64,000 nucleotides of DNA from an uncultured delta proteobacterium (lineage in GTDB: Bacteria; Desulfobacterota; Binatia; DP-6). The notes under the pieces were generated by a model that had not been told where the DNA came from, made no database searches, and worked only from the letters and a program-made list of their open reading frames with translations. The DNA lies in contig CAWKPA010000001.1 in NCBI GenBank assembly GCA_963851365.1, forward strand, positions 167,013 through 231,012, given 5' to 3'. This document shows, in pieces, positions 6,344 to 56,439 of this stretch (position 1 is its first letter; each line of letters begins with the position of its first letter). Position numbers and translations under genes: made by a program.

Positions 6344-6347
6344 GGGC

Positions 6348-6758
6348 TCACTCCTCCCGGCCTGGGGGCCGGCGCATCGCCTTCTTCGCCGTCTGGGCAT
6401 GCTTGGCGGCGAGCATCTTCTCCTGCGCGCGCCGCGACCGCCGCCGCTTCTGGCGGCGGACCTTCGCGATCTCGTGGGCGCGCGCGCTCGCCTCCCCGCG
6501 CAGGCGCGCCTCGAGTTCGTCCGCGAGACGCCGGCGAGCCAGGAAGCGGTTCATCGCCTGCGTCCGCGTCTCCTGGCACTTCACCACGATGCCGCTGGGC
6601 AGATGCCGCAGCACGACGCACGTGGCGACCTTGTTCACGTTCTGGCCCCCGCGGCCCGCGGATCGCACGAAGCGTTCGTCGACATCGTCGTCGCGGATGC
6701 CGAGCGCCGCGAGCCGCGCGAACAGCGCCCGCTCTTTGTCCACCGAAACGGGAAACAT
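6348..6758 (-). CDS. arfB: ArfB-like peptidyl-tRNA hydrolase (RF-1 GGQ domain)
   Basis: [26 protein letters not shown] and a basic C-terminal tail. Confidence 0.8.
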
Positions 6759-8618: not shown

Positions 8619-8777
8619 TCAATGTCCTTTACCCGGCGGCGGGCGGCCGGACCAGGTAACCAACCCGCGCCGCCCGGGTCAATGGACCGTTGGGGCGGCC
8701 AATCGGGCACCGCTGCACGCCAGCCACCGGCCACGCCGCGGGTATCGAGCGGGCCCGCTTTCCGATAGAGCAGTCGC

Positions 8778-42968: not shown

Positions 42969-43991
42969 CTACTTGTACGCCACCGCCGCGCTGGTCGCGC
43001 CGGCCAGGTGAATGACGGCGAAGCGCCGGAACCCCACCTGCTCGCACCAGCCGCGAAAATCCGCGCCGGTGAAGTCGAAGGCGTCGCCGAACTCGATCAA
43101 CATGTTGAGCGACATGAGCAGGCCGAAGAGGTTCTCGCGGCGGCGGTCGTCGATGAGGGCTTCGATCGCCACCAGCGCGCCATCCGGCGGCAGGGCGTCG
43201 TACGCTGCCCGGATGAGGCGCAGTTTCTTGTCCAGATTCCAATCGTGGAGGATCATCCCCATCGTGACGACATCCGCCTTGGGCAGCGGGTCCACGAAGA
43301 AATCCCCCGCGGCCGTGTCTATGCGGTCAGTCAGCCCGGCGGCGGCGATGGCGTTCTTCGCGACGGGCTCGACCGGCGGCAGGTCGAAGGACGTGCAGCG
43401 GAGATGTGGGTGGCGTTTGGCGACCTCGATCGACAGCAAGCCGGTGGCCCCGCCCACGTCGCACAGCGTCCGGTAGGGCGTGAAGTCGAACTTCTCGGCG
43501 AACGCCTCGAAGTTGATGCGCGAGAGCCCCGTCATCGCGCCGAGGAACTGCTCCAGCTTCGGCAGCTCGGCGTAGAGCTCTTCGAAGACGCCCTTGCGAC
43601 CGTGCTTGGTCTCGTTCTGGGGCTTTCCCGTGCGCAGCGCCTCCGGCAGATCCTGCCAGAACCGGTATAGCCGCGCGTTCAGCATCTCGAGAATGCCGCC
43701 CACATAGCGCGGGCTCGTCCGATCGAGGTACAGGGCGCCCGCGGCGGTGTTGCGGTACGACGCCCCGGTCCCGTCGCCGTCACGCTCGAGGAAACCCATC
43801 GCCACCAAAGCGTCGAAGAAGTCGTAGGTGCCACGCGGGTGGAGTCCCAGCTCGTCGCCGAGCGCCGCCGCGGTGAGCCTGCGCGAACCGAGCCGCGTGA
43901 AGAGGCCGAGCTCGACGGCCGTCAGCAGGACCTTGGCGGACCAGAACGAGAAGGCGGTCTGGAGGATCGGCGCAACGTCCGGGGGCGGCAT
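42969..43991 (-). CDS. SAM-dependent O-methyltransferase (Methyltransf_2 with dimerisation domain)
   Basis: AVELGLF, DVGGATG, GDFF and ILHDW. Confidence 0.9.
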   Translation of the reverse strand: MPPPDVAPILQTAFSFWSAKVLLTAVELGLFTRLGSRRLTAAALGDELGLHPRGTYDFFDALVAMGFLERDGDGTGASYRNTAAGALYLDRTSPRYVGGILEMLNARLYRFWQDLPEALRTGKPQNETKHGRKGVFEELYAELPKLEQFLGAMTGLSRINFEAFAEKFDFTPYRTLCDVGGATGLLSIEVAKRHPHLRCTSFDLPPVEPVAKNAIAAAGLTDRIDTAAGDFFVDPLPKADVVTMGMILHDWNLDKKLRLIRAAYDALPPDGALVAIEALIDDRRRENLFGLLMSLNMLIEFGDAFDFTGADFRGWCEQVGFRRFAVIHLAGATSAAVAYK

Positions 43992-44120
43992 GGCTCGGGT
44001 GTAGAAAGAGATCGCCCCGGGACGCAAGAGCCGGCGCACGCAGCCATCGGGGCACGGCTTGCCTGGCCCGGCCAACGAGGCGAGAATCAGTGGTCCGAGT
44101 CCACAGGAGGAGGTTCGCCC

Positions 44121-45557
44121 ATGGCCCAGACCGCACAGCTCCGGAAGATCGAGCATGCCGAGAACGAGGCGCAGCGCGTCTTCGCGCTCCAGCGCGCCGC
44201 ATATCTCGCCCACCCCTATCCGACGCTCGCGGAGCGCAAGGAGAATCTCAAGAAGCTGGACCGCCTGCTGGTGGACAACGCGCAGGCGATCGCCGAGGCG
44301 ATCAACGCCGACTTCGGGCACCGGGCGGTCGAAGAGACGCTCATGGCCGAGGTCTTCGGGACGGTCGACGGCATCCGCCACGCGGTGAAGCACGTCGCCA
44401 AATGGATGAAGCCCCAGAAACGCGCCGTGGCGATCACCTTCGCGGGCGGCTCGAACACGCTCATCCCGCAACCGAAGGGCGTGGTCGGCATCGTGTCGCC
44501 GTGGAACTACCCGCTCTTCCTGACGGCGGGACCGCTCACCAGCATCCTCGCAGCCGGCAACCGTGCCATGATCAAGATGGCGACCAACTCCCAGCACCTG
44601 GCCCGCCTGCTGGCGGAGAAGTTCGCCGCGGTCTTTCCGGAGGACACCGTCGCGATCCTGCCCGGTGTGCGCGCGCAGGACTTCTCCACCCTGCCCTTCG
44701 ACCACATCATCTTCACGGGCTCGGCCGACGCCGGCCGCACGGTGATGCGGTCCGCGGCCGAGAACCTGACGCCGGTGACGCTGGAGCTGGGCGGCAAGTC
44801 GCCCACCATCGTATGCGACGACTTCGACGTCGACGAGGCGGCGGCGCGCATCCTCTACGCCAAGTACCTGAACGCCGGTCAGACGTGCCTCGCGCCCGAC
44901 TACCTGCTGATCTCCGAGGCGAACCGCGATCGCTTCGTCGAGGCCGCGAAGCGCATCATGCCGGCGCGCTACCCCGACACGAACCAGCAGAGCTACACGT
45001 CGGTGATCGACGACAAGTCGTACCGGCGGCTGCGCGCCACGCTGGAGGACGCCCGCCAGAAGGGCGCCACGCTGGTGCCGCTGATTCCCGGCGCCGAGTT
45101 CAACGACCAGCTCCGCAAGATCCCGCCGCACCTGCTGCTCGACGTCACCGACGACATGACCATCATGCAGGAGGAGATCTTCGGGCCGCTCTTCCCGGTG
45201 AAGACCTACCGCAGCCTGGACGAGGCGATCGCCTATGTGAACGCCAAGGACCGGCCGCTCGGCTTCTACGTCTTCACCAACGACAAGGCGATTCAGGAAA
45301 CGGTGCTGTACGCCACCATTTCGGGCGGCGTCACCATCAACAACTGCGTGCTCCACGTGGCGCAGCACGACATGCCCTTCGGCGGGGTCGGCGCCAGCGG
45401 CATCGGCCACTACCACGGCTGGGAGGGCTTCCTCGAATTCACCAAGCTGCGCCCGGTGTTCCGGAACCCCCGCTTCTCCATGTTGAGCATGCTCTACCCA
45501 CCCTACACCGCGCGCACGCGTCAGCTGCTCGATCTGCTGATCAAGTACAAGCCGTAG
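44121..45557 (+). CDS. Aldehyde dehydrogenase (coniferyl-aldehyde dehydrogenase-like)
   Basis: SPWNYP, FTGS, LELGGKSP, NAGQTC, EEIFGP and PFGGVG; strong SD. Confidence 0.92.
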   Translation: MAQTAQLRKIEHAENEAQRVFALQRAAYLAHPYPTLAERKENLKKLDRLLVDNAQAIAEAINADFGHRAVEETLMAEVFGTVDGIRHAVKHVAKWMKPQKRAVAITFAGGSNTLIPQPKGVVGIVSPWNYPLFLTAGPLTSILAAGNRAMIKMATNSQHLARLLAEKFAAVFPEDTVAILPGVRAQDFSTLPFDHIIFTGSADAGRTVMRSAAENLTPVTLELGGKSPTIVCDDFDVDEAAARILYAKYLNAGQTCLAPDYLLISEANRDRFVEAAKRIMPARYPDTNQQSYTSVIDDKSYRRLRATLEDARQKGATLVPLIPGAEFNDQLRKIPPHLLLDVTDDMTIMQEEIFGPLFPVKTYRSLDEAIAYVNAKDRPLGFYVFTNDKAIQETVLYATISGGVTINNCVLHVAQHDMPFGGVGASGIGHYHGWEGFLEFTKLRPVFRNPRFSMLSMLYPPYTARTRQLLDLLIKYKP

Positions 45558-45634: not shown

Positions 45635-46810
45635 TCACGTACCGTGGGGGGGCGGCGACATCGCGCGGCGGCGGAACGTTCCGGCGACGAACCGGACCGG
45701 CCTGTAGAGGTAACAGACGGGGAGCAACCACGCGGTCTGGACCGGAAACGCACTGCGCAGGTACGTGGACGACGGCGCCACGACCCAGCGCGCAACCCGC
45801 GCCCGCCCGCGCCACGAAGCCGCCGACCGCCACAGGCTGGCGAGGTCTCCGCGCGGGCCGGCATGCGCGCCCCCGAGCGCCACTTCGTACGCGGCGCGGT
45901 GCGCGGCCGCCGCGCGGGCCTGCAGAGCCGCCAGCGCCGGCGGCGGAATGCGGGCGCCCAGATCGGCGAGATACGCCGCCAGCGTCGCGATCGGCAGCGC
46001 CAGCCGATACGCGTCGATACGGCCGACCACGTCGTCCCAGTCGAGATCGTGCCGCGCGACGAGGTGCCAGGCGTCCGCCACCCACCGGAGGTTCCGCCTG
46101 CTGGGACTGTACGAGGCGTGGCCGAGCACGTGCACCAGCGTGGCTTCGGGCGCCGGCGCCCGGGCGGAGGCCTCGTCGATGGCGATCCGGCAGGCATCGC
46201 GGCAGAACTCCTCGACCGTCGCGTCGTAGTAGCCGACCCCGAACGGCCTCACATGGAGCGCGATCTCGAGGCCGGAGCCGTGCCGGAGCACCGCGCCGAT
46301 GCGCGGCCCACGGAATCGCCCGATGGGGACGCACTCCGCGCGGGCGAGCGCCCGCACCGCGCGCGTCAGTTGGCGGGCCGGCACGAGCAGGTCCACGTCG
46401 TGACAGTGCCGCAGCTCCCAGGCGTCGTAGACCGTCGCCGCGAGCGCGGCCCCGCGCACCACGAGCGCCTCGACCCCGTCGCGGGCGAGGGCGGCGAGGA
46501 CTCCGGCGGCGATCTGGCGATACCGCGCCGCACGCAGTTCCTCGCGGAGCGCCGCGGCGCGCACGTACGACAGGACGTCGCCTCCCAGGTCGAGGTCGTT
46601 GCGAGTCACCGAGCGGGCGAGCAGTGGCAGGAGGGTGCGCGTCCCGGCCAGGTCGGCACACACGCCCGCGTCGGTGGACCCGCGGCGCGCGCGCCAGCGA
46701 CGCCAGCCGTCCCCGGCCGACGACCCGGTGTGCAGACATGCGGCGAGGAGCGCGCTCTCGTCGGGCGTCGGCAGCAGCACCGAGAAGGTGCCGCCGATGC
46801 CGCCGGTCAC
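45635..46810 (-). CDS. Nucleotidyltransferase family protein (NTP_transf_5-like)
   Basis: VVRGAALA..Y...R..HDVDLLV, EIALH and LRWVAD. Confidence 0.75.
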   Translation of the reverse strand: MTGGIGGTFSVLLPTPDESALLAACLHTGSSAGDGWRRWRARRGSTDAGVCADLAGTRTLLPLLARSVTRNDLDLGGDVLSYVRAAALREELRAARYRQIAAGVLAALARDGVEALVVRGAALAATVYDAWELRHCHDVDLLVPARQLTRAVRALARAECVPIGRFRGPRIGAVLRHGSGLEIALHVRPFGVGYYDATVEEFCRDACRIAIDEASARAPAPEATLVHVLGHASYSPSRRNLRWVADAWHLVARHDLDWDDVVGRIDAYRLALPIATLAAYLADLGARIPPPALAALQARAAAAHRAAYEVALGGAHAGPRGDLASLWRSAASWRGRARVARWVVAPSSTYLRSAFPVQTAWLLPVCYLYRPVRFVAGTFRRRAMSPPPHGT

Positions 46811-47502
46811 GTCGGCGTCCCCCGCCGTCGATCGAGCGCCGCCTTCACGACGTGCAGGAACTGGTCGCGGCTCGCTGACCGATGCCGGCGGCTGAAGTTG
46901 TCGTGGTGGAGCCGCCGGCGCGTGAGGACCTCCGGAACGAGGACGCCGGCCGCTCCGCGTTCCGAAGCCCGCAGGAACCAGTCCGCGGCGAACGCGAAGG
47001 GCAACGTCTCGTCGAAGTGGCCGATGTCCCCGAACGTGGCGCGCCGCACGAGCAGCGTCTGCACGACGTACCCCGGCACCGGTTGCATGACCGGTCGATC
47101 GGCATAGCGCTCGGCCTCCCGCTGCAGCTCCGGGATCCAGAAGTTCTGCACGAGACCCACGCAATGGCTCAGGGCGGGGTTCGCCGCGAACTCGGCAAGC
47201 TGGCGCCGCGTCTTGTCCGGCACCCACAGGTCGTCCTGCTCCAGGAATGCGACGAAGTCGCCGGTCGCGAGCGCCACACCCCGATTGCACGCCGCCGCCG
47301 GGCCGCGGTTCTCCTGCCGGTGGTATCGCACCGTCCCGTCGTACCGGCGAACGACCGCCGGCGAGTCGTCGGTGGAGCCGTCGTCGACGACGATCACCTC
47401 GAGCGGTCGATGCGTCTGCGCGAGGATGCTCCGGAGACTCTCGTCGAGGTACCGTGCGCCGTTGAAGCAGGGCACGATGCAGCTGACCAGTGCGCGCGAC
47501 AT
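46807..47502 (-). CDS. Glycosyltransferase family 2
   Basis: VSCIVPCFN, VVDDGSTD and N.G.A.ACN; atypical FLEQDD motif. Confidence 0.88.
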   Translation of the reverse strand: MSRALVSCIVPCFNGARYLDESLRSILAQTHRPLEVIVVDDGSTDDSPAVVRRYDGTVRYHRQENRGPAAACNRGVALATGDFVAFLEQDDLWVPDKTRRQLAEFAANPALSHCVGLVQNFWIPELQREAERYADRPVMQPVPGYVVQTLLVRRATFGDIGHFDETLPFAFAADWFLRASERGAAGVLVPEVLTRRRLHHDNFSRRHRSASRDQFLHVVKAALDRRRGTPT

Positions 47503-47504
47503 GA

Positions 47505-48749
47505 TCACAGCCCCAGGGCGTCGATCGCCTCCCGTACACGGGCGCCCACCGTGGACCAGGAGAATCGCTCGGTGACGATCGCTCTGGCATTCGCCATCAG
47601 CCGACTCGCCAGCACGGGGTCGCGGCGGATCGACAACACGGCATCGACGAACTCGCCCGGGGCGTGCGCCAGCAGCAGGTGGCGACCCCCCTCGACGCCC
47701 AGGCCCTCCGCCCCCTTGGCGGTGCTGACGACGGGCAGGCCGGCAGCGAACGCTTCCAGCACCTTGAGGTGCGTTCCGCCGCCGTGGAACAGCGGCACCA
47801 CCATCACGGTGGCCTCGGCGAAGTACGGCCGGACGTCCGGTACCGCTCCGGTCACGACGATGCGGACATCACGCGCCGCGGCGTCGAGCAGCGACCGGGG
47901 AGGCGTCGGACCGACGAGCACCAGGCGCGAGGTCTCCCGGGCGGCGACGAGGCGCGGAAACACCTCGTCGACGAGGAACTGCGCGGCGATCGCGTTCGGC
48001 AGATACGAGAAGATTCCGGGGAACAGCAGGGTGAGCGCGGCCTCGTCGGACGCGGGCGTGCGGCGCCCGGCGCACCCGTCGCCGTAGCTGTCCACCCGAA
48101 CGCCGTTCGGCACGACGAACGGCGGCGACCGCACGTCGTACAGCGCGCGCATGCGGTTCGCGTCATCCTCGCTGCAGACCCACACCTGGTCGGCCGCGCC
48201 GACCGCCCGCCGCTCGATCGCTTCGGTCCGCGCCGGCAGCACGTCACGGACGACGCGTCCCTCCAGGTCCTGGCGGGTGTTCGTTGCCGCGAGGGCCCGC
48301 ATCACGGCCGCTTCGACGTTGTGGCAGTCGAGGATCACCCGGCAGCCGGCCGCGCGCAGCACGTCCACGTAGCCGTGCAGCCAGAGCCCTTCGACGAGCG
48401 CCGCGTCCGGGCGGAACCGGTCGAGCAGATCCCCCAGCTCGCGCGCCGCCTGCTCGGAGAAGTGGAGATCCGACGGATGACCCGCGGGGTCCAACAGCCA
48501 CGCCCTGGCCGCCAGCGCGACGTCCCTCGGCGGGGGCGACGTCAGCGCCGGGTCCGTCGATGCCGTCCAGAACGCGAGCGGCAGATCCGGCGCCGCGTGC
48601 CGGCGGCCGTCGTTGGAGCACAGCCCGAACACGCCGACGCGCCCGCACGAGGTCAGCGCGTTGACGTGCTGCCAGGTGCGGAGGTCGCCCCCCTTCACCG
48701 TCGGGTACGGCAAGGACTCGGACAGCACGAGGATGCGCGGCCGGCTCAC
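47505..48749 (-). CDS. Glycosyltransferase family 4
   Basis: VVPNGV, YLPN and GGGTHLKVLEAFAAGLPVVST. Confidence 0.9.
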   Translation of the reverse strand: MSRPRILVLSESLPYPTVKGGDLRTWQHVNALTSCGRVGVFGLCSNDGRRHAAPDLPLAFWTASTDPALTSPPPRDVALAARAWLLDPAGHPSDLHFSEQAARELGDLLDRFRPDAALVEGLWLHGYVDVLRAAGCRVILDCHNVEAAVMRALAATNTRQDLEGRVVRDVLPARTEAIERRAVGAADQVWVCSEDDANRMRALYDVRSPPFVVPNGVRVDSYGDGCAGRRTPASDEAALTLLFPGIFSYLPNAIAAQFLVDEVFPRLVAARETSRLVLVGPTPPRSLLDAAARDVRIVVTGAVPDVRPYFAEATVMVVPLFHGGGTHLKVLEAFAAGLPVVSTAKGAEGLGVEGGRHLLLAHAPGEFVDAVLSIRRDPVLASRLMANARAIVTERFSWSTVGARVREAIDALGL

Positions 48750-49831
48750 GCAACGTTCCGGGACCCGGCGCTGGTCACGATGCGCTCGAGACTCGGGCGG
48801 ATGTCGCCGAGATCGGGACCGAGGAACAGCCAGTACGCCGGGACGCGCTCGACCAAGGCTGCGATCCGTTCCAGCGCCTCGCGCCCCGGCCGCGGCACCA
48901 CGGTGTGGAGCGTACTGGCGGCGAACTGCCGGAGCGCTTCGGAGGCGCGCGCCGGGCGGATCTCCGTCCGCTCGCTGCGGATGCGCAGCAGGACGACGGC
49001 GCGAATCGGCACCGTGGACCGGAGCAGGCCGGGGTGGATCTCGGAGAGGAACAGGATCGGCTTCTCCTCCTCGGGGAAGCTGTCCTCGACGGCGCGTGGT
49101 TGGATTTCGGGGAAGCGCTCCAGGTTCTTGCGGGCGATGCACGCGGTGTTGAAGATGCTGTGCCCGCGGAAGCTCCCATCGGGCCCCCGCTCGAGGCCGA
49201 CGAAATCGTCGCCGAGGTATTCCAGTCCCTGCGAGACGCTCGCCACGCACGTCGTCGACTTGCCGGTCCCGCTCTCGCCGGGGAGCAGGATTCCCGCGCC
49301 GCCGGCGGCGATCAGGCCGGCGTGCAGGATCTGCACGCCCCGGTCGTGGTACCAGACGGACAACAGGAGCACGAACGGCTTGCTGCATTCGCCGCGCGCG
49401 AGGTGCGACCCACTCCGCCGGCAGCCGATGATATGCTGCGCGTGGCGATCGAGCACCGTGACGGAGTCCTGGTAGTGGAAGCTCACATACCGGCCATCGG
49501 GCGATGCCGTGAGGGTGCCGTCGCACGCGACCCACTCCCGCCCGGCCCCGGTCGCCGTCGCTTCCGGCGGACACGGCACGCCGGTTTCGGTCTCGTCCCA
49601 GAGATCGATCGACAGGCCTTGCCCCGCGACACCCTCGATGCGCCGCGCGAGATGGGCGAACGCGCGATGCGTGCGCTCGCCCAGTCGGGCGCCGACCGCA
49701 CGCAGTCGCACGGGTCGCCCGGCGAACTCGTAGGTTTCCTCGCGCACCTCGCCGGGGCAGCGGCGCAGCGCTTCGCCGACCTCGCGTCGCATCCCCACGA
49801 CGTGAGCCGGCGTCTCGCACACGGGCGTCAC
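48746..49831 (-). CDS. HPr kinase-like kinase (lasso-peptide kinase-like)
   Basis: LHAG, Walker A GESGTGKSTT and YLGDDFV. Confidence 0.8.
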   Translation of the reverse strand: MTPVCETPAHVVGMRREVGEALRRCPGEVREETYEFAGRPVRLRAVGARLGERTHRAFAHLARRIEGVAGQGLSIDLWDETETGVPCPPEATATGAGREWVACDGTLTASPDGRYVSFHYQDSVTVLDRHAQHIIGCRRSGSHLARGECSKPFVLLLSVWYHDRGVQILHAGLIAAGGAGILLPGESGTGKSTTCVASVSQGLEYLGDDFVGLERGPDGSFRGHSIFNTACIARKNLERFPEIQPRAVEDSFPEEEKPILFLSEIHPGLLRSTVPIRAVVLLRIRSERTEIRPARASEALRQFAASTLHTVVPRPGREALERIAALVERVPAYWLFLGPDLGDIRPSLERIVTSAGSRNVA

Positions 49832-50271
49832 CGCGTCTTCCCCTCGTTGAACATCAGGTCGTCGATGCCCGGCGTCGGCGGATCGAGCGCGAGCAGATTC
49901 CCCATGTCGCGGTAGACGTTGAGCTTCGGCGTCTCGTACACCAGGGTCGCGCCCGCGGGCGCGGCGCCGGGCTGCCCTCCCGCGCCAGCGCCATCCGAGG
50001 CGACGACGAGGCCCTCCGCGAGCAGCTCCTGGACGAGCGCGCCGACGTCGTGCGCGACCTGGTCGGCGGATGCCCCATACCACCCGGCGATGGTGGCGGC
50101 GAGGGTGGGCAGGTCATGCTGCTGCTCGATCAGCTCCCACACCCGGGCGCCGACGTTGTCCATGGAATAGTACGTCCCGTCGGACAGGCGGATGATGATC
50201 AGCTCGCCGTCGATCACCTTGGCGGCGACGTCCGCCCCGTTCGGTGCGAAGCGCTCTCGCGGTTCAGACAT
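49828..50271 (-). CDS. PqqD/RRE domain protein with C-terminal YxxPxL leader-like tail
   Basis: RRE core DGELIII..GTYYSMDNVGARVWELI..DV..LV..L..EGLV, then a Gly/Ala linker and YETPKLNVYRDMGNLLALDPP. Confidence 0.85.
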   Translation of the reverse strand: MSEPRERFAPNGADVAAKVIDGELIIIRLSDGTYYSMDNVGARVWELIEQQHDLPTLAATIAGWYGASADQVAHDVGALVQELLAEGLVVASDGAGAGGQPGAAPAGATLVYETPKLNVYRDMGNLLALDPPTPGIDDLMFNEGKTR

Positions 50272-51388
50272 GAGGTTCCTCCATCAGACGATTGTGTTCG
50301 TAGAGCCGTTCGTACTCGTCCACGCAGCGATCCCAGGCGAACCGCTCGACGGCCCGGACGCGTGCCGCGCGTCCCATCCGATCGGCAGCCGCAGGATCCT
50401 CCAGAAGGCGTACGATGGCGTGCGCGAGCGCGGTGGGGTCTTCCCGGTCCACCAGTATGCCCGTCGTTCCATCCTCGACTACCTCGGCAAGGCCGCCGAC
50501 GCGCGCCGCGACGACCGGGCGCGCCATGAAGGCCGCTTCGAGCGCCACCAGGCCGAAGGGCTCGTCCCACCGCGACGGCACGACGACGAGAGCGGCCCGA
50601 TCGACGAGCGCCGGCACCGCATCGGGCGGGACGGCGCCCAGGAACTCGATCGCCCCGGACAGACCCAGGCTGCAGGCCAGGGCCTCCAGCTCGGCGCGGG
50701 CGGCGCCATCCCCGGCGAGCACGAGCCGGGCGTCCGGCACCCGGGGCAGCACCATGGCGAACGCCCGGACCGCGAGGTCGAATCCCTTGTCGGCCACCAG
50801 TCGCCCGAAGCCGAGGACCCGTGGCGCCGCGGTCGGCCGCTCGCTCGGGCGATGCGCCGGAACCGGCATACCGTAGTAGGTGACCGACGAGCGATCACGA
50901 AGCTCCGGCGCGACCCGTAGGAGGTCCGCATGGACGGCGTGCGAGTTGCAGTTCACCCAATCGGCGGAGCGGAGCGCGCGGCCGGCGAGGGTGTCGCCGC
51001 GCGCGGCATCGGCGGGCACGGGACTGTGCATCGTCAACAGGACCGACGCTGGGCGGCGGCCCAACGATGCCAGGTGGAAGAGCACGCTCGGTCCGAGTGT
51101 GTTGAGGTGGATCAGGTCCGGCGGGTGTTCGCGTTGGAGGCGCCAGACCGCCCGCAGCGCCTCCGCCATGCGATCGACGTCATTGGCGGCCAGGATGGCG
51201 TGGAACCAGTAGCGGCGCACGCGCACACCCTCATGGTCGAACTCGTCGGGCAGGCCCGGGCGATGGTGTCCGGCAACGACGGTGATCTCGTGCCCGCGGC
51301 GTGCGAGCGCCGGCAGCAGGCGTGCGGCGAAGACCTCGACGCCCCCAATGGAGGGGAGAAACCAATCCGTCCAGAAGAGGACGCGCAT
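50264..51388 (-). CDS. Glycosyltransferase family 4
   Basis: FLPSIGGVE, GRLVADKG, EPFGLVALEA and GGLAEVV. Confidence 0.92.
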   Translation of the reverse strand: MRVLFWTDWFLPSIGGVEVFAARLLPALARRGHEITVVAGHHRPGLPDEFDHEGVRVRRYWFHAILAANDVDRMAEALRAVWRLQREHPPDLIHLNTLGPSVLFHLASLGRRPASVLLTMHSPVPADAARGDTLAGRALRSADWVNCNSHAVHADLLRVAPELRDRSSVTYYGMPVPAHRPSERPTAAPRVLGFGRLVADKGFDLAVRAFAMVLPRVPDARLVLAGDGAARAELEALACSLGLSGAIEFLGAVPPDAVPALVDRAALVVVPSRWDEPFGLVALEAAFMARPVVAARVGGLAEVVEDGTTGILVDREDPTALAHAIVRLLEDPAAADRMGRAARVRAVERFAWDRCVDEYERLYEHNRLMEEPHV

Positions 51389-51542
51389 GGGGACCAGTAC
51401 CGCCTTTCTTCGGGGAAGACCAGAGATGCCGACGCGGCGCGTTGGGGCGATGGCCCGCGCCCGCGGCGGGACGCGAGGAGCCGCCCGCGTCCGGGGCTTG
51501 CGGGTCGGCATCGACATGGGGCAGCCTCGATCGCGCCGAGAT

Positions 51543-52886
51543 ATGCGGCATGTCTTGTTCATACACTATCATTTCCTGCCGGTGCACAACGTGGCCGTGA
51601 AGCGACTCGTGGGGTACGCCCGGGGGCTGCCTGCCTTCGGCTGGCGCACCTCGGTGCTCACCCGGGATTGGCGCGGAATCGAGGACGCGGACCCCCTGTG
51701 GGGTCTCAGCTGGGAGCCGGACATCGAGCGGGACCTCGGGTGCCCGATCTACCGGGTGCCGGCGCCGGCCCCCACCCGACCGCTGGCGCCCTCCTGGGAC
51801 CCGTCGCCGCCGCGGGGGGCCGGCCCGCGCGGCGTCCTGGCGCGGACAGGGCGTAAGCTGGCGGCGAAATCGCGCCGGCTTGCGCGCATGGCCGTTGGCG
51901 ACTACCCCGACGACCTGATCGGCTGGGCGCGCCCCGCGATCGACGCCGGCCTGGCGATCGCGCGCCGGGATCCGATCGACACGATCATGAGCTACTGCCC
52001 GCCCGAGACGAATCACGTCGTCGCCCGCCGGCTCGCCCGACGTCTCGACGTCCCCTGGGTGCCGTTCTTCGGTGATCTCTACGGGTTCCTCGAAGCGCCG
52101 CTGCCCGCGTATTCGATCGAGGGCGCCCTGCGACGGGCTTGGCACCGGTGGTGCCTGGCGCCGGCGGCCGCCTGCGTCGCCGTGTCGCCGTACATGGCCC
52201 GCTACCTCGCCCGAACCTATCGGAAGCCGACCACCGTCGTCCTCACTGGGTTCGACCCGGACCCGCCGCCCGTGGCGGCCGCCCCGGCGCCGGACCGCTT
52301 CGTGGTTTCCCACGTCGGCTCCGTGTACCCGGGGGATCAGCGGCCCGACATCCTCTTCGCCGGGCTCGACCGGCTCCTTGCGCAGCATCCCGAGATCGAG
52401 CCGCGACTCGAGGTCCGGCTGGTCGGCTCGAAATGCGACGCCCATCTCCGCGGCATGCTGGATGGCCGGCCCGCGGCGCGCGTGTGCACGATCCAGGCCA
52501 AGGTGCCGTCCGCGACCGCCGCCGTCATGGTGCATGCCAGCGACGCCCTGCTCGCGTTCACCTGCACGATGCACCGCGACCGGCACGGAACGCTCAGCTA
52601 CCCGACGAAGATCTTCGAGGCCTTCGGGGCGCGGCGCCCCATCCTGGCAATCCCCCCAGACGGCGACTGGGTCGACGAGCTGCTCGCGCGCACCGGCGGC
52701 GGCATCGGGGCGCGGGATCCGGACGAGGTCGCCGGCCGGCTCTGGGACTGGTTCTGCGAATGGCGACGCGACGGCCACCTGGCCTACCAGGGCAAGCCGG
52801 CGGAGATCGCCCGCTTCTCCCGCCGCGCGCAGGTCGAGCGCCTCGCGCGACTCTTCGAGACGGTCGCCGAGCGGCGGGCGCCATGA
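51543..52886 (+). CDS. Glycosyltransferase family 4-like
   Basis: YHFLP, SYCPP, GFD, HVGSVY and PTKIFEA..RPIL. Confidence 0.85.
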   Translation: MRHVLFIHYHFLPVHNVAVKRLVGYARGLPAFGWRTSVLTRDWRGIEDADPLWGLSWEPDIERDLGCPIYRVPAPAPTRPLAPSWDPSPPRGAGPRGVLARTGRKLAAKSRRLARMAVGDYPDDLIGWARPAIDAGLAIARRDPIDTIMSYCPPETNHVVARRLARRLDVPWVPFFGDLYGFLEAPLPAYSIEGALRRAWHRWCLAPAAACVAVSPYMARYLARTYRKPTTVVLTGFDPDPPPVAAAPAPDRFVVSHVGSVYPGDQRPDILFAGLDRLLAQHPEIEPRLEVRLVGSKCDAHLRGMLDGRPAARVCTIQAKVPSATAAVMVHASDALLAFTCTMHRDRHGTLSYPTKIFEAFGARRPILAIPPDGDWVDELLARTGGGIGARDPDEVAGRLWDWFCEWRRDGHLAYQGKPAEIARFSRRAQVERLARLFETVAERRAP

Positions 52887-53832
52887 CCGTCGAGACGCCG
52901 CTCGTCTGCATCATCGGCGCCCCGCGGAGCGGCACCACCTGGCTTCAGGCCATGCTCGGCGCCCATCCTCTGATCTGCACGGCGCAGGAGCTCAAGGTCT
53001 TCGACCTGTTCACCGGACCCTGGGAACGCTCCTGGCGCGCGCTGATCGACCTGCAGCGCGCGGCCGGCGGCGGGCGCCGTGGCCTGCGCGTCGTCTGGTC
53101 GGACGACGAGTTCTACGCGCTGCTCGCCGAGTTCCTCCAGCGGATCTACGCGCGCGTGCTGGCAAGCAAGCCGGGGGCGACGGTGGTGCTCGACAAATCG
53201 CCGGGCTACTCGAAGTATGCCGCGCACATTCAGCGCCTGGTGCCCTCGGTGAAATTCCTTCATGTGCTGCGCGACGGCCGGGACGTCGCGGTCTCCCTGC
53301 GAGCCGGCGCCCGGTCGTGGGCGCGGACCTGGGCCCCCAGTTCCATGGATGCCGCCGCCGCCCTGTGGCGATCGACCGTCCTCGACGCGCGCGAGGCGGG
53401 CCGCATCGCGCCCGGGCGCTATCGCGAGGTCCGCTACGACGAGCTGCTGCGGAACGGCCCGGCGGTGCTGCGCGATCTCTTCGGCTTCATCGGGGTGCCG
53501 GCAACGCCGGCGGAGGCGGCGGCCATCTGCGAGCGCCACACCATCGACCGGATGCGACGGGGCGCACACCCGTTCGACCTGCCCCAGGACTTCTTCCGGC
53601 GAGGACGAGAAGGTTCGTGGCGTCACGAGCTGACGCCGACGGAACGATACCTCGTCCACGACGCCGCCGGCGATCTCCTCGCCGAGCTCGGCTACGCGGA
53701 CGGGTCCTGGTGGGCCGAGCGGGGATACCAGCGCTGGCTGGTCCCCCTGCTCGCCGGCGCCCGGGCCCGCCGGCACGTCCGCGGACTCGTGCAGCGGGTC
53801 CGCGGCATCCCCCCCCCGGTCCCGGCACATGA
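52883..53832 (+). CDS. Sulfotransferase (the 3' end depends on a C9 tract; as written the frame runs to 54238)
   Basis: PAPS-binding GAPRSGTTW, DKSP, RDGRDVAVS, VRYDEL and FFRRG..GSW. Confidence 0.88.
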
Positions 53833-54965
53833 GCACCGATCCGGCACGCCACCTGCCCATGTTGCGCGCGCTCGTGCGAGGCGACGTGAGCGCGCTGCGG
53901 GAGACGCTGGCCGATCCGGCGACCGACGTCGCAGGCTTCCTGCGCTTCGCGCATCGACACCAGCTCGGCTCCTACGCCTATTGGTCGCTGCAGCGGCTCG
54001 GCCTCGCCCGCTCGCTCCCTCCGCCGCTGCTGGCCGCCACGAAGGCCTCGGCGTTCGTCGAGCGCGCCCGGAGCGAGCGTCTCGCGCTGCTGCTGGACGA
54101 GCTGGGCGAGTTGTTCGACGCCGCGGGGGCGCGCGCGCTGTTCATCAAAGGGCCCCTCTTCGCACAGCGCTTCTACGGCAGCCTCGAGGCCCGCGGCTTC
54201 TCGGACCTGGACGTGCTGATTCCCGCGCCCACCGATAGCGACCGGATCGAGCGGCTATTGCGCGGCGCGGGCTTCGAGCCGGCCTTTCGCGTTCTCGGGA
54301 CGCGACGGCTGACGCGATACTTCGCGCACCATTTCGAATACCGGCGCGACACCCTGCCCCTCGACGTGCATTGGGCGCTGCAGCGGCACTTCACGTTCGC
54401 GATCGACTATCCCCGCCTCTGGGCCACGTCGGTTCGGGTCGAGCTGGGAGGGCGCACGTTCGGGGCGGCGTCGGACGAGTACGAGCTGGTCCTGCAGATC
54501 CTGGGGGTCCTCACGGACCTGCAGGTGGGCAAGCTCTCGCTGCGCACCGTCGTCGACGTGTTTCGCGTGCTCGAGACGGTCGAAGGGGAGATGGACTGGC
54601 ACGATTTCCTCGCCTGGCGGGCACGCGAGCGCATCCTGCGTCCGGCGCTGTTCGTCCTCGCTCTCACCCTGGACGTGCTCGATTGCCGCGACGGCTTCCC
54701 GACCCTGTGCGAGGCGTTGGACGCGGGGCGCCATCGCATTCCGTCCACCCAGGCCGCCCGCCGCGCCGTGTTGGAAAGCCGCCCGCTGGATCTCGAGCAG
54801 AAACTGCTCGCGCTCCGCCTCTACGAGGCGCCGCTCCCGACGTCGCTGGCCTGGTGGCTCCTGTCGCTCCCGTTCCGGATCGCGGCCTACGGGATCACCC
54901 GCCCGCTGCGCGTGGCGCCCGCCGCCACCAGGACCCGCTCCATCCAGCCGGGGACGACGCGGTGA
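53829..54965 (+). CDS. Nucleotidyltransferase family protein (NTP_transf_5-like)
   Basis: FIKGP...Y....R..SDLDVL and LDVHW. Confidence 0.82.
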   Translation: MSTDPARHLPMLRALVRGDVSALRETLADPATDVAGFLRFAHRHQLGSYAYWSLQRLGLARSLPPPLLAATKASAFVERARSERLALLLDELGELFDAAGARALFIKGPLFAQRFYGSLEARGFSDLDVLIPAPTDSDRIERLLRGAGFEPAFRVLGTRRLTRYFAHHFEYRRDTLPLDVHWALQRHFTFAIDYPRLWATSVRVELGGRTFGAASDEYELVLQILGVLTDLQVGKLSLRTVVDVFRVLETVEGEMDWHDFLAWRARERILRPALFVLALTLDVLDCRDGFPTLCEALDAGRHRIPSTQAARRAVLESRPLDLEQKLLALRLYEAPLPTSLAWWLLSLPFRIAAYGITRPLRVAPAATRTRSIQPGTTR

Positions 54966-55025
54966 TGCGCCAGCGTGGGTTTCCCATCGCGGCGGCAACC
55001 TGCTACCGGGGCCGCGTCCGTCCAT

Positions 55026-55121
55026 GGAGAAGGAAGAGGCCCGGTGGCCTCACCGGTCTTCAAAACCGCGTTGTCCCGCCTGGCGCGGGATGGAAGGTTC
55101 GACTCCTTCCCTTCTCCGCCA
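55026..55121 (+). tRNA. selC: tRNA-Sec (anticodon TCA)
   Basis: 8-bp acceptor GGAGAAGG/CCTTCTCC; 6-bp D stem GAGGCC/GGCCTC with 4-nt loop; anticodon loop CT-TCA-AA; long variable arm; 5-bp T stem with TTCGACT; G discriminator and CCA. Confidence 0.95.
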
Positions 55122-55130
55122 TCTCCGCCA
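55113..55130 (+). repeat. Tandem duplication of the tRNA-Sec 3' end (TCTCCGCCA x2)
   Basis: Direct repeat at 55113-55121 and 55122-55130. Confidence 0.8.
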
Positions 55131-55143
55131 TGATGGCGGCCGC

Positions 55144-56439
55144 ATGGCCCGCACCCGCATCGTCGCCACCATCGGTCCCGCCACCGACGACGAGCCGCGC
55201 CTCGCCGCGCTCCTCGACGCGGGCGTCGACGTCGTCCGGCTGAACTTCTCCCACGGCAGCCACGAGGAGCACGGACGGCGCATCGCCGGCGTGCGGCGGC
55301 TCGCGGCGGGACGCCCGATCGCCATCCTGCAGGACCTGGGCGGCCCGAAGCTGCGGCTCGACGCCCCCGTGCGGGCGGCGCCGGGCGACATCGTCGCATT
55401 GCCGCTCCCCGCCACGGTCCTCCCCGGCGATCCCGTGCTGCTCGCCGACGGCCTCATGCAACTCGAGGTGCTCGACGCCCACCACAGCCGCGCCGTCACC
55501 GGCGGCGACATCCCCGCCGGCAAGGGCATCAACCTGCCGTCGTCGCGGCTCGACCTGCCGGCATTCACCGACAAGGACCGCCGCGACCTGGCGTTCGGCG
55601 TCGCCCAGGGCGTCGACCTGGTGGCGCTGTCGTTCGTCGAGCATCCGGCGGACCTCGCCGAGGCGAAGGCCAGCGGCGTTCCGGTGCTGGCGAAGATCGA
55701 ACGGGCCCGCGCCCTCGACCACCTCGACGCGCTGGTCGAGGCCGCCGACGGCATCCTGGTGGCGCGCGGCGACCTCGGCGTCGAGATCCCGATCGAGCGT
55801 GTGCCGACCGTCCAGAAGCGCTTGGTGCGGCTCGCCAACCACGCCGCCAAGCCGGTGATCGTGGCGACACAGATGCTCCGCTCGATGGTGACGAGCCCGC
55901 TCCCGACGCGCGCGGAAGCCACCGACGTCGCCAACGCGGTCCTCGACGGCGCCGACGCGGTGATGTTGAGCGAGGAGACCGCCATCGGCCAGTTCCCGGT
56001 GGAGGCGGTCGGGGTGATGCAGCGCATCCTGGGGGCGGCGGAGGCCGAGCTGCCGCCGTGGGGGCACGAGCCGGACACCGGCATCTCGGAGAACGTCGCG
56101 CGCGTCGCGTGCACCCTCGCCGAGCGGCTTGGCGCCGCGGCCCTCGTGGTGGCCACGCGCTCCGGGTTCTCGGCCCGCAACGTCGCACGCCACCGGCCGC
56201 GCATCCCCATCGTCGCGCTCACGCCCGACGAATCGACCCGGCGCCGCCTGTCGCTGGTGTGGGGCGTGACGGCGCTGGCGTCGCCGTGGTTCGACGACAC
56301 CGATGCGTTGCTGGCCCGCTTTCGCGATGCCGTCCGGCCGACGGGCATGGTGCCGGCCGGCGCGCCGGTGGTGGTCACCGCCGGTTGGCCCTTCGCCGAT
56401 GCGGGGACGACGAACCTGCTCCACGTGACGGCGATGTAG
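55144..56439 (+). CDS. pyk: Pyruvate kinase
   Basis: IVATIGPA, RLNFSHG, AKIE, ARGDLGVE, ATQML and DAVMLSEET. Confidence 0.95.
   Translation: MARTRIVATIGPATDDEPRLAALLDAGVDVVRLNFSHGSHEEHGRRIAGVRRLAAGRPIAILQDLGGPKLRLDAPVRAAPGDIVALPLPATVLPGDPVLLADGLMQLEVLDAHHSRAVTGGDIPAGKGINLPSSRLDLPAFTDKDRRDLAFGVAQGVDLVALSFVEHPADLAEAKASGVPVLAKIERARALDHLDALVEAADGILVARGDLGVEIPIERVPTVQKRLVRLANHAAKPVIVATQMLRSMVTSPLPTRAEATDVANAVLDGADAVMLSEETAIGQFPVEAVGVMQRILGAAEAELPPWGHEPDTGISENVARVACTLAERLGAAALVVATRSGFSARNVARHRPRIPIVALTPDESTRRRLSLVWGVTALASPWFDDTDALLARFRDAVRPTGMVPAGAPVVVTAGWPFADAGTTNLLHVTAM

What the first reader, a model, noticed from the sequence alone, without database searches (positions are those of the whole stretch)
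49828..50271. RRE fused to its own lasso-leader-like peptide
Seen: after a roughly 90-aa RRE and a GAGAGGQPGAAPAGA linker comes YETPKL (49921-49938), then NVYRDMGNLLALDPPTPGIDDLMFNEGKTR. Known: YxxPxL is the motif that lasso-peptide RREs bind. The Gly and the -2 Thr expected in a cleavable lasso leader are replaced (by R and L). Inference: the tail folds back into its own RRE, acting as a cis-presented substrate (its Thr/Asp residues are candidate acceptors) or as an autoinhibitory pseudo-leader.
Basis: partly seen in the sequence, partly recalled or inferred. Interest (0 to 1): 0.8.

Follow-up and report, generated by a model that had tools for sequence, protein, structure and literature searches.

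The report
Peptide-binding protein carrying its own leader
A small peptide-recognition protein carries, on a flexible tether, the very motif such proteins normally bind in a separate peptide, and probably acts as a permanently loaded partner of the neighbouring kinase in a widespread, unstudied sugar- and phosphate-adding gene cassette.

Summary
ORF 49828-50271(-) encodes a 147-aa protein with three parts: a PqqD/RRE domain, a 19-residue Ala/Pro/Gly linker, and a tail starting YETPKL.

The tail is the most conserved part of the protein. Mean top-residue frequency is 0.99 for R121-G135, against 0.69 for the RRE and 0.33 for the linker (119 homologues).

The RRE is closest to lasso B1 proteins (TbiB1). 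Its leader-contacting residues are conserved. Two AlphaFold models, of the window protein and of a 39%-identical relative, place only YxxPxL+3 confidently (pLDDT 95), with the same three-residue strand seen in RRE-leader crystal structures.

A controlled complex prediction supports binding to the adjacent HprK-like kinase (ipSAE 0.74, best control 0.00).

The genome has no lasso protease, and the window has no cyclase and no separate precursor gene. The cassette (RRE-tail, kinase, GT2/GT4, NTP_transf_5) recurs in 32 loci across many phyla.

No Ser or Thr is universally conserved in the tail, and T133 varies in distant members.

Best reading: a self-loaded RRE adaptor for the kinase. A self-substrate role stays open. 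The closest described system is the LPP clusters of Bacillota. I rate this a new variant of a known kind.

The parts
49828..50271 (-). Gene for the 147-aa RRE-plus-tail protein. Its stop codon TGA (49830-49828) overlaps the GTG at 49831-49829 of the next gene as GTGA.
49996..50238 (-). RRE (PqqD-type winged helix) domain, residues 12-92. Strands are 7-10, 15-20, 23-28, 34-38 and 89-92; helices are 40-49, 54-65 and 69-85.
   Evidence: Pfam PF05402 at 51.1 bits. AF2 pLDDT is at least 91 for residue blocks 11-90. Foldseek best hit is TbiB1 5v1v_A, rmsd 1.1 A over 83 columns. The A2 profile matches TbiB1 at E 3.5e-16.
49939..49995 (-). Tether, residues 93-111. Variable in sequence and rich in Ala, Pro and Gly.
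   Evidence: Mean top-residue frequency 0.33. Length is 16-21 residues in 119/119 sequences. A+P+G make up 57%. pLDDT is 63-67.
49912..49938 (-). Leader-like recognition segment Y112-E-T-P115-K-L117-N-V-Y120.
   Evidence: pLDDT 95 and strand 118-120 in the window protein. The same pattern appears in the L035 homologue: block 101-110 at pLDDT 95, strand 107-109. The [Y/W]xxPx[L/V/I/F/A] motif and the three-residue strand after it are described in PMC13381572 sections 6 and 8.
49867..49911 (-). Invariant distal tail R121-D-M-G-N-L-L-A-L-D130-P-P-T-P-G135.
   Evidence: Mean top-residue frequency 0.99 in A2. pLDDT is 53-59 in the monomer. Residues 120, 122 and 132-141 touch the kinase in the complex model. 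Far relatives relax R121, G124 and T133.
49831..49866 (-). Variable C-terminal end, I136-R147, with a conserved hydrophobic or aromatic residue at position 141.
   Evidence: Mean top-residue frequency 0.56. Position 141 is F 65, L 33, W 11, Y 7 of 119.
48746..49831 (-). HprK-like P-loop kinase, 361 aa if it starts at the overlapping GTG. P-loop is G185-T193; D208/D209 are present.
   Evidence: Hpr_kinase_C 28.1 bits, below the 33.3 cut-off. TIGR04352 32 bits, below 200. Invariant G185, G190, K191 and D209 in A3. Predicted complex with the RRE-tail protein.
50264..51400 (-). GT4 glycosyltransferase directly upstream; start codon uncertain.
   Evidence: Glycos_transf_1 at 2e-39. A relative is present in 27 of 32 loci.
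47505..48701 (-). Second GT4 glycosyltransferase; start codon uncertain.
   Evidence: Glyco_trans_1_4 at 3e-22. TIGR03087 at 2e-40, below its cut-off. A relative is present in 9 of 32 loci.
46807..47508 (-). GT2 glycosyltransferase, 233 aa.
   Evidence: Glycos_transf_2 at 4e-32. A relative is present in 30 of 32 loci; the two without it have under 1 kb of downstream flank.
45635..46810 (-). NTP_transf_5 (PF14907) nucleotidyltransferase-like protein, copy a; start codon uncertain.
   Evidence: PF14907 at 2e-29. A relative is present in 19 of 32 loci.
51282..52886 (+). GT4-like protein, divergently transcribed; start codon uncertain.
   Evidence: Glyco_trans_4_4 at 7e-10. A relative is present in 4 of 32 loci.
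52901..54238 (+). Sulfotransferase. The family match covers the first ~260 residues; the open frame runs on into the next gene.
   Evidence: Sulfotransfer_3 at 1.7e-29. A relative is present in 3 of 32 loci.
53829..54965 (+). NTP_transf_5 (PF14907), copy b.
   Evidence: PF14907 at 1e-38. A relative is present in 7 of 32 loci.

Best explanation
The protein is a lasso-B1-type RiPP recognition element (RRE) that has its own recognition sequence fused to it. A 16-21-residue flexible tether lets Y112-x-x-P115-x-L117 sit in the protein's own peptide-binding cleft, and N118-Y120 add a fourth strand next to strand 34-38. The RRE is therefore always 'leader-loaded'. The exposed face of this extended sheet binds the C-terminal helices of the adjacent, translationally coupled HprK-like kinase. 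The invariant distal tail (R121-G135 plus the hydrophobic residue at 141) lies on the kinase's N-terminal domain. So the protein works as a built-in adaptor or activator subunit of a kinase / NTP_transf_5 / GT2-GT4 cassette that sits in glycan-type loci. It would be a natural counterpart of engineered leader-fused RiPP enzymes, which act on leaderless substrates. What is shown: the anatomy, the conservation, the synteny, and the absence of lasso and LPP processing genes. What is modelled: the cis docking and the kinase binding. What is inferred: the activator role and the true substrate. Whether the tail is also an acceptor remains open.
For: (1) Conservation in A2 (119 sequences): linker 0.33, residues 112-120 0.76, residues 121-135 0.99, RRE 0.69. 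Linker length is 16-21 residues in 119/119.
(2) A query with the RRE alone (residues 1-95) found 104 relatives, and 101 of them are 142-163 aa. The only ones lacking the tail, P0270 and P0272, lose the reading frame on contigs of 577 and 731 nt. No tail-less close relative was found.
(3) A tail-only profile searched against 1.84 billion representatives gave 260 clusters at E<=0.001. In the 150 rows listed, the match always lies in the last ~55 residues.
(4) The RRE's nearest solved relatives are lasso B1 proteins crystallised with their leaders: Foldseek 5v1v_A E 4e-5, rmsd 1.1 A; profile versus TbiB1 E 3.5e-16, versus PbaB1 5.5e-11, versus LppB 2.1e-8.
(5) I mapped the PbaB1 contact residues listed in PMC13381572 section 8 through the gap-free alignment, where our residue n equals PbaB1 n-4. 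Y34, Y35, S36, M37, V40, Y65, D75, L79, L83 and L88 are 87-100% conserved. The 16 contact positions average 0.78, against 0.67 for the 65 other RRE positions.
(6) AF2 gives pLDDT 95 to block 111-120, between 63 and 59 on either side, with strand 118-120. Strands 7-10 and 89-92 match the beta1/beta5 lock described for LppB and PbaB1. The L035 protein, 39% identical, shows the same pattern.
(7) The complex prediction with the kinase scored ipSAE 0.74 (three runs: 0.75, 0.74, 0.73) against a best of three controls of 0.00. That mark was reached by 58 of 80 solved complexes and 2 of 110 mismatched pairs. The runs agree in at least 90% of contacts and the partner's pLDDT is at least 79. I recall no solved RRE-HprK-like complex that the model could have memorised; this was not searched.
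(8) The 14 RRE residues at that interface average 0.95 conservation, against 0.64 for the other 67.
(9) A kinase relative lies within +/-8 kb in 24 of 32 loci. In 3 of the 5 kinase-less loci I checked, it lies further along the same contig.
(10) Engineered precedent: fusing the leader to LynD or MicD gives constitutively active enzymes (passages of PMC9052802). LppB is insoluble without its leader (PMC13381572 section 8).
Against: No model coordinates were available, so cleft occupancy is inferred from pLDDT, secondary structure and the alternating contact pattern; it was not seen. Both AF2 models and the complex model draw on overlapping alignments and are not independent of one another.
The homologue sets were gathered by shared words or by tail patterns, which inflates the apparent invariance of the tail. 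Far members relax R121, G124 and T133.
The kinase-side interface is no more conserved than the rest of the kinase: 0.53 for 38 residues against 0.51 for 323.
8 of 32 loci have no kinase within 8 kb. One genome (G003) had only a weak hit at 6.9e-4, and in G005 the only strong hit is partial and on another contig. GT2 is the more constant neighbour (30/32), so the invariant tail may serve another partner.
Near-total invariance of 15 residues is more than a simple docking peptide usually needs, and would also suit a substrate or product.
The P-loop is not among the confident contacts, which leaves the kinase's substrate unknown.
There are no experimental data.
Confidence: 0.5

Rival explanations
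1. Self-substrate, meaning an RRE-precursor fusion. The tail is leader plus core in one chain. The cassette's kinase, NTP_transf_5 and glycosyltransferases modify a residue in or after the invariant segment. The 147-aa protein is then a self-presented acceptor, a carrier, or a primer of a phospho-glycan.
For: There is no separate precursor gene and no room for one in the window's cluster. In the LPP system the same enzyme families act on a peptide whose leader has YxxP, and the acceptor Ser lies 18 residues after that Tyr (PMC13381572 sections 6 and 7). Y112+18 is the invariant D130, and T133 lies three residues further on. The layout is leader-like: a conserved part followed by a variable end. 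Locus L010 carries three copies of the gene, as one would expect for a consumed precursor. Tail residues 132-141 touch the kinase in the model.
Against: No hydroxyl residue is universally conserved. T133 is V/M/Q/I/A/L in 21 of 33 tails. Y120 is H or F in some members and Y112 is F or W in some. 58 of 119 tails have no Ser at all, and 72 of 119 have no Ser or Thr after P134. LppK does not accept Thr or Tyr. The kinase P-loop (185-193) is not among the confident contacts. No peptidase or exporter to release a product was seen in the cluster's annotated genes, and the genome searches placed none there.
Confidence: 0.27
2. Autoinhibitory pseudo-leader. The tail occupies the cleft until a genuine precursor, encoded elsewhere, displaces it.
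For: The segment carries the binding motif but lacks the Gly and -2 Thr of cleavable lasso leaders. That leader motif is recalled, not taken from a call.
Against: No candidate precursor is present in this cluster, and none was noted in the 12 related loci whose unmatched ORFs of 90 aa or more were scanned; peptide-sized ORFs were not scanned for. The tail-only profile found the motif only at the C-termini of RRE proteins or of fragments of them. Autoinhibition alone would not explain an invariant 15-residue segment beyond the binding motif.
Confidence: 0.07
3. Binding in trans. The tail of one molecule fills the cleft of another, giving dimers or head-to-tail chains that scaffold the enzymes.
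For: The models cannot tell cis from trans. Variants exist with two RREs or two YxxPxL segments: P0267, P0198 and P0257.
Against: The tightly constrained tether length of 16-21 residues fits a fixed intramolecular span. The monomer models dock the segment with pLDDT 95.
Confidence: 0.08
4. The YxxPxL resemblance is coincidental. The whole tail is only a docking peptide for a partner enzyme (kinase or GT2), and the RRE cleft is empty or binds something else.
For: The relaxed motif occurs by chance in 4 other cluster proteins. GT2 is the most constant neighbour.
Against: Y112, P115 and L117 are conserved. The lone W at position 112 fits the [Y/W] rule. The pocket residues are conserved. The strand is predicted exactly three residues after the motif, as in the crystal structures.
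Confidence: 0.05

Closest known systems
Linear polyphosphorylated peptide (LPP) clusters of Bacillota: LppA/K/B/S/D/N (Popov et al., Nat Commun 2026, PMC13381572; I read sections 6, 7, 8, 11 and 12 and searched the main text for six terms)
   Same: Both have a discrete lasso-type RRE, an HprK-like kinase and a PF14907 NTP transferase. Both lack a macrolactam cyclase. Both have a YxxP recognition motif followed by a conserved enzyme-facing segment, and both are embedded in polysaccharide and glycosyltransferase loci.
   Different: In LPP the leader sits on a separate 35-200-aa precursor; here it is fused to the C-terminus of the RRE. Here there is no SipW-like peptidase in the genome and no ABC exporter in the window. 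There is no conserved Ser at the acceptor spacing; an invariant Asp sits there instead. GT2 and GT4 genes belong to the conserved core here. The cassette is found in many phyla, whereas the paper calls LPP restricted to Bacillota.
Lasso peptide B1 RREs with their leaders (TbiB1 5v1v/5v1u, TfuB1 6jx3, PbaB1 9x90)
   Same: These are the best structural and sequence matches. The cleft residues and the motif are the same, and the model shows the same three-residue strand.
   Different: Here there is no B2 protease (Transglut_core3) anywhere in the 94.6%-complete genome and no Asn-synthase-like cyclase in the window. The ligand is in the same chain. The NCBIfam lasso_PqqD models score below their cut-offs.
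Engineered leader-fused RiPP enzymes (LynD-F, MicD-F; passages of PMC9052802)
   Same: The leader is tethered to the protein that binds it, giving a permanently loaded, leader-independent state.
   Different: Those are laboratory constructs with the leader at the N-terminus of a catalytic enzyme. This is a natural, free-standing RRE with the motif at its C-terminus.
Phosphorylated and phospho-glycosylated lasso peptides (paeninodin, pseudomycoidin; passages of review PMC8498205)
   Same: The same tailoring families are present: an HPr-kinase homologue, a nucleotidyltransferase that adds hexose to the phosphate, and a sulfotransferase gene in some clusters.
   Different: Those enzymes act on the C-terminal Ser of a separate precursor. 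The C-termini here are not conserved and often lack Ser.

Membership tests
PqqD / RRE domain (Pfam PF05402) | Match to the family model above its gathering score | tested here: met
   51.1 bits against a cut-off of 23.4, residues 23-89, covering the full profile 1-67
PqqD / RRE domain (Pfam PF05402) | [quoted passage not shown] | tested here: met
   AF2 secondary structure: strands 15-20, 23-28, 34-38; helices 40-49, 54-65, 69-85; pLDDT at least 91. Foldseek TM 0.88 on TbiB1.
Lasso peptide system (B1 RRE) | NCBIfam lasso PqqD chaperone models above their cut-offs | tested here: not met
   NF033536 41.6 bits against 80; NF033530 28.1 bits against 70
Lasso peptide system (B1 RRE) | B2 leader peptidase (Transglut_core3, PF13471) present | tested here: not met
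   0 matches in the whole genome, which is 94.64% complete
Lasso peptide system (B1 RRE) | Lasso cyclase (Asn_synthase homologue) in the cluster | tested here: not met
   The three PF00733 matches lie on contigs C13 and C4; the window is on C1
Lasso peptide system (B1 RRE) | Separate precursor peptide with YxxPxL in its leader | tested here: not met
   The ORF list shows no intergenic room in 45635-54965. The motif is in the RRE's own tail.
LPP cluster (PMC13381572) | Discrete RRE plus HprK-like kinase plus PF14907 NTP transferase | tested here: met
   The kinase scores below the curated cut-offs (28.1 against 33.3), but its P-loop and DD residues are invariant.
LPP cluster (PMC13381572) | Archaeal-type signal peptidase I (LppS) | tested here: not met
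   TIGR02228: 0 matches in the genome
LPP cluster (PMC13381572) | MsbA-like exporter (LppD) in the cluster | tested here: not met
   10 PF00664 matches in the genome, none inside the window. The nearest is at C1:77861, and the window starts at C1:167013.
LPP cluster (PMC13381572) | Separate precursor with leader YxxPxVLxHQxIxFETxxS and an acceptor Ser | tested here: not met
   There is no separate precursor. The tail shares only YxxPx[LV]. Position Y+18 is Asp, and the window's tail has no Ser.
HPr-rel-A system (TIGR04352 kinase; TIGR04353 PqqD, recalled) | Kinase and PqqD proteins above the equivalog cut-offs | tested here: not met
   TIGR04352 32.1 bits against 200. No TIGR04353 hit at E<=0.01 for the RRE protein.

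The most novel reading that the evidence does not exclude
This is a natural fusion of an RRE with its own precursor. It would define a peptide- or protein-modification class outside Bacillota in which the protein's own invariant tail is the acceptor or primer. On that tail the kinase, the PF14907 transferase and the GT2/GT4 enzymes build a phosphate-linked glycan, with no leader peptidase or exporter encoded in the cluster. In effect it would be a protein-primed or protein-carried glycan pathway that borrows RiPP recognition logic.
Probability: 0.2. Interest if true: 0.85.

Novelty: new variant of a known kind. Interest (0 to 1): 0.66.

Why it matters
RREs are thought of as receptors for a separate leader peptide, and genome mining uses them to find precursor genes. 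Here the receptor and its ligand are one chain, which explains why 'orphan' PqqD / HprK-like / PF14907 cassettes show no precursor. It offers a natural example of the leader-in-cis trick that enzyme engineers invented. It also gives a concrete, testable handle on a cassette that spans many phyla and sits in glycan loci: the Y112/P115 motif, the invariant DMxxLLALDPP segment, and the predicted kinase interface. The biological role of the characterised relatives (LPP, paeninodins) is itself unknown (PMC13381572, Discussion). I found no description of the fused form in the held library (searches; term searches in PMC7470986 and PMC12710340; term search in PMC13381572). I did not open the supplements of those papers, and they might list such proteins.

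Tried and rejected
- Searches failed on a frame error in one reference. I corrected it and repeated them.
- The TbiB1 structure paper (PMC6883790) is not held. I took the contact residues from PMC13381572 instead.
- ESM Atlas returned only unnamed PqqD clusters of about 150 aa and added no functional lead.
- The short hits (44-101 aa) to the tail profile might have been free-standing precursor peptides. On reading 23 of them, most start inside RRE helix 3 or the linker, or carry unrelated, apparently out-of-frame N-termini. I treat them as fragments, but I did not inspect their contigs, so a free peptide form is not excluded.
- Sequencing runs held only small shares of the sampled words (0.06-0.09). 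After laying three runs, a few 151-nt contigs fit. An RNA-library contig (X1, record 2, 0 differences) spans 49748-49898 across the RRE stop and kinase start. The tool warns that DNA may be present in such a library, so this is not evidence of transcription or of habitat.
- T133 as a general acceptor was rejected because of its variability.
- The idea that the kinase is dispensable, because 8 of 32 loci lack it nearby, was weakened. Same-contig kinases appear in 3 of the 5 genomes checked, by matching contig numbers. One genome has a strong partial hit on another contig, and one has only a weak hit.
- I could not test binding to GT2 or NTP_transf_5 because only one complex job is allowed.
Full report
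**1. Observation**

ORF 49828..50271 on the minus strand encodes 147 aa. Pfam PqqD covers residues 23-89 at 51.1 bits against a cut-off of 23.4. The linker DGAGAGGQPGAAPAGATLV follows.

The stop codon overlaps a GTG of the next gene as GTGA, in the frame of an HprK-like P-loop protein (48746..49831).

The bare motif is not significant on its own. A relaxed [YF]xxPx[LIVM] pattern occurs once in 5 of the 10 cluster proteins I scanned. The case rests on conservation and structure.

**2. Conservation of the tail**

A word-indexed search gave 339 relatives at E<=0.001 among 677 candidates. The 120 listed are 141-155 aa long, apart from one truncated entry, P0085. I aligned 35 of them (A1) and then 119 (A2; P0085 left out).

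Mean top-residue frequency by region in A2:

| Region | Mean frequency |
|---|---|
| N-terminus 1-11 | 0.55 |
| RRE 12-92 | 0.69 |
| Linker 93-111 | 0.33 |
| Y112-Y120 | 0.76 |
| R121-G135 | 0.99 |
| C-terminal end 136-147 | 0.56 |

The linker varies in sequence but is 16-21 residues long in all 119 sequences, and Ala, Pro and Gly make up 57% of it.

These sets are biased. depends on shared 5-residue words, and the loci were found with patterns taken from the tail itself. I ran two less biased searches:
- A query restricted to the RRE (residues 1-95) returned 104 hits, of which 101 are 142-163 aa. The two that lack the tail (P0270, P0272) lose the reading frame on contigs of 577 and 731 nt. 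P0167 is frameshifted within the RRE but regains the tail. P0277 (128 aa) also has the tail.
- A tail-only profile (A4) read against 1.84 billion representatives found 260 clusters at E<=0.001 and 92 at E<=1e-10. In the 150 rows listed, the match always lies in the last ~55 residues.

Far members relax the motif to YxxPxLxxY-x-DM-xx-LLALDPP-x-P-x-L. R121, G124 and T133 are not universal.

**3. What kind of RRE it is**

The AF2 model (mean pLDDT 81.2) matches lasso B1 proteins crystallised with their leaders best. TbiB1 5v1v_A scores E 4.2e-5 with rmsd 1.1 A over 83 columns and 26% identity; TfuB1 6jx3_B follows. The A2 profile matches TbiB1 at 3.5e-16, PbaB1 (9x90) at 5.5e-11 and LppB (9x8z) at 2.1e-8.

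The NCBIfam lasso PqqD models score below their cut-offs. I therefore do not file the protein as a lasso B1.

**4. Does the tail sit in its own cleft?**

No coordinates are returned by the tools, so the argument is indirect. Five lines of evidence bear on it.

(a) AF2 gives pLDDT 95 to block 111-120, flanked by 63 and 59, and calls a strand at residues 118-120.

(b) Popov et al. (PMC13381572, section 8) describe two features of the LppB and PbaB1 crystal complexes. [quoted passage not shown] The three residues after the motif's Leu pair with the RRE strand Y38-N40. Our strands 7-10 and 89-92 fit the lock, and strand 118-120 is exactly the three residues after L117.

(c) The alignment has no gaps, so our residue n equals PbaB1 n-4. 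The paper's contact residues map to Y34, Y35, S36, M37, V40, V44, I61, W64, Y65, G66, A67, Q71, D75, L79, L83 and L88. Ten of these 16 are 87-100% conserved. Among them is D75, at the position whose counterparts hydrogen-bond the motif's aromatic residue (Q79 in PbaB1, D70 in LppB). Contact positions average 0.78, against 0.67 for the other 65 RRE positions, which is a modest enrichment.

(d) A second model, of the most distant locus protein (L035, 39% identical; alignment A5, 64 rows), repeats the pattern. Block 101-110 has pLDDT 95, the strand 107-109 falls three residues after the Leu, and pLDDT then drops to 57, 55 and 50.

(e) The constrained tether length fits a fixed intramolecular span.

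Cis and trans binding cannot be distinguished from these data.

**5. Context**

The nine-gene cluster at 45635-54965 holds:
- two NTP_transf_5 (PF14907) genes
- one GT2
- three GT4 or GT4-like genes
- a sulfotransferase
- the HprK-like kinase
- the RRE-tail gene

The genome is 5.15 Mb and 94.64% complete. It has no Transglut_core3 (lasso B2) and no archaeal-type signal peptidase I. Its Asn-synthase and ABC_membrane matches all lie outside the window. The RRE-tail gene is single-copy.

Pattern scanning of one genome per species gave 32 loci, all from metagenome-assembled genomes. By their record titles they come from Chloroflexota, Gemmatimonadota, Methylomirabilota, Actinomycetota (Thermoleophilia), Acidobacteriota, Nitrospirota, Bacteroidota/Rhodothermales, Binatia, Vulcanimicrobiota and delta-, beta- and gamma-proteobacteria.

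I ran tblastn with the window's proteins against these loci (HSP at least 80 aa, E<=1e-5):

| Window protein | Loci with a relative (of 32) |
|---|---|
| GT2 | 30 |
| Upstream GT4 | 27 |
| Kinase | 24 |
| NTP_transf_5 copy a | 19 |
| Second GT4 | 9 |
| NTP_transf_5 copy b | 7 |
| GT4-like | 4 |
| Sulfotransferase | 3 |

I searched the genomes behind five of the loci that lacked a kinase. Three have strong kinase genes further along what is, by contig number, the same contig. One has a strong partial hit on another contig. One has only a weak hit (6.9e-4).

In the 12 related loci I scanned for further genes, I also found AsnB-type amidotransferases, radical SAM/SPASM proteins, a Wzx-type flippase, PMT_2, an epimerase, a deacetylase and a heparinase-like protein. 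The setting is therefore glycan-type.

**6. Binding to the kinase**

I ran one controlled complex prediction with the kinase alignment A3 (19 rows) and the RRE-tail alignment A2 (119 rows).
- The score was ipSAE 0.74 (runs 0.75, 0.74, 0.73), with a best of three controls of 0.00.
- The tool's mark was reached by 58 of 80 solved complexes and 2 of 110 mismatched pairs. The tool notes these counts hold only roughly here, because my own alignments were used.
- The runs agree in at least 90% of contacts, and the partner's pLDDT is at least 79.
- I recall no solved RRE-HprK-like complex; this was not searched.

The confident contacts on the RRE-tail side are residues 16-18, 20-23, 25, 27, 29, 32, 34, 36 and 38, plus tail residues 120, 122 and 132-141. 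The alternating residues form one face of the sheet. On the kinase side the contacts are residues 295-328 and 98-116, 129-130 and 158-163. The P-loop (185-193) is not among them.

The 14 RRE interface residues average 0.95 conservation, against 0.64 for the other 67. On the kinase side the figures are 0.53 for 38 interface residues and 0.51 for 323 others, so there is no enrichment there.

The arrangement resembles the way the LppB-leader sheet is modelled against a helix of LppS (PMC13381572 section 11).

**7. Substrate or adaptor?**

In LPP the kinase polyphosphorylates Ser3 of the core, 18 residues after the motif Tyr. The S3T and S3Y variants are not phosphorylated (PMC13381572, section 7).

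Here Y112+18 is the invariant D130. T133 is kept in all 119 A2 sequences but is V/M/Q/I/A/L in 21 of the 33 A4 tails. 58 of 119 tails contain no Ser, and 72 of 119 have no Ser or Thr after P134. The window's tail has no Ser at all.

I therefore favour a permanently loaded adaptor or activator over a self-substrate. Two published observations give this a rationale. Engineered leader-enzyme fusions are constitutively active (passages of PMC9052802). LppB is insoluble without its leader. The self-substrate reading stays a serious rival at about 0.27. The near-total invariance of R121-G135, the leader-then-variable-end layout, and the three gene copies in L010 all fit it.

**8. Comparison and novelty**

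The closest described system is the LPP cluster, followed by phosphorylated and phospho-glycosylated lasso peptides (passages of PMC8498205). Defining features of both are not met: a separate precursor, a leader peptidase, an exporter, and a cyclase.

I found no description of a natural RRE with its own leader. This rests on four full-text searches and on term searches within three papers:
- PMC7470986
- PMC12710340
- PMC13381572

I did not open their supplements.

Earlier notes of this same scan describe the same family in other genomes and pointed me to the Popov paper. They are not independent evidence. I re-tested their central claim here.

**Verdict**

The fold-back is supported by models and conservation but has not been seen directly. 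The feature is a new variant of a known kind and of real interest to the RiPP field.

Noticed in passing
window 52901-54238 (+) and 53829-54965 (+): The sulfotransferase open frame runs about 410 nt into the following NTP_transf_5 gene. Its family match ends near residue 260. In locus L005 the two homologous genes do not overlap. This could be a lost stop codon, a sequencing error or a real extension.
   Followed up: no
L010:715-1104, 6156-6545, 8742-9104: Three copies of the RRE-tail gene lie within 9.1 kb. Two of them have identical tails, and each is near a GT2 gene. Two kinase genes lie 17-32 kb further along the same contig.
   Followed up: partly
proteins P0267, P0257, P0198: Three variant architectures were seen. 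P0267 has two RRE domains in tandem, the first followed by a degenerate YxxP...YR segment and the second by the full tail. P0257 has an extra YxxPxLxxYR at its N-terminus. P0198 has two YxxPxL segments in its tail.
   Followed up: no
window 49748-49898: A 151-nt contig from a metatranscriptomic library (run X1) matches with no differences and bridges the RRE-tail stop and the kinase start. The tool warns that DNA may be present in such libraries.
   Followed up: partly
G000:C5:152253-152975 (L037): A third PF14907 (NTP_transf_5) gene lies elsewhere in the genome, outside the cassette.
   Followed up: no
L009:11048-12943, L014:11977-13842, L020:10407-12275; L010:1259-2299, L013:4991-5923, L033:1879-2745: Several related loci carry AsnB-type asparagine synthases with full glutamine-amidotransferase domains, and radical SAM/SPASM genes, inside the same clusters. 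The window's cluster has neither.
   Followed up: no
window 42969-44051 (-) and 43839-45557 (+): An O-methyltransferase and an aldehyde dehydrogenase flank the cluster on one side. A pyruvate kinase (55024-56439) flanks the other side. A relative of the methyltransferase appears in only 1 of 32 loci, so it is probably not part of the cassette.
   Followed up: partly
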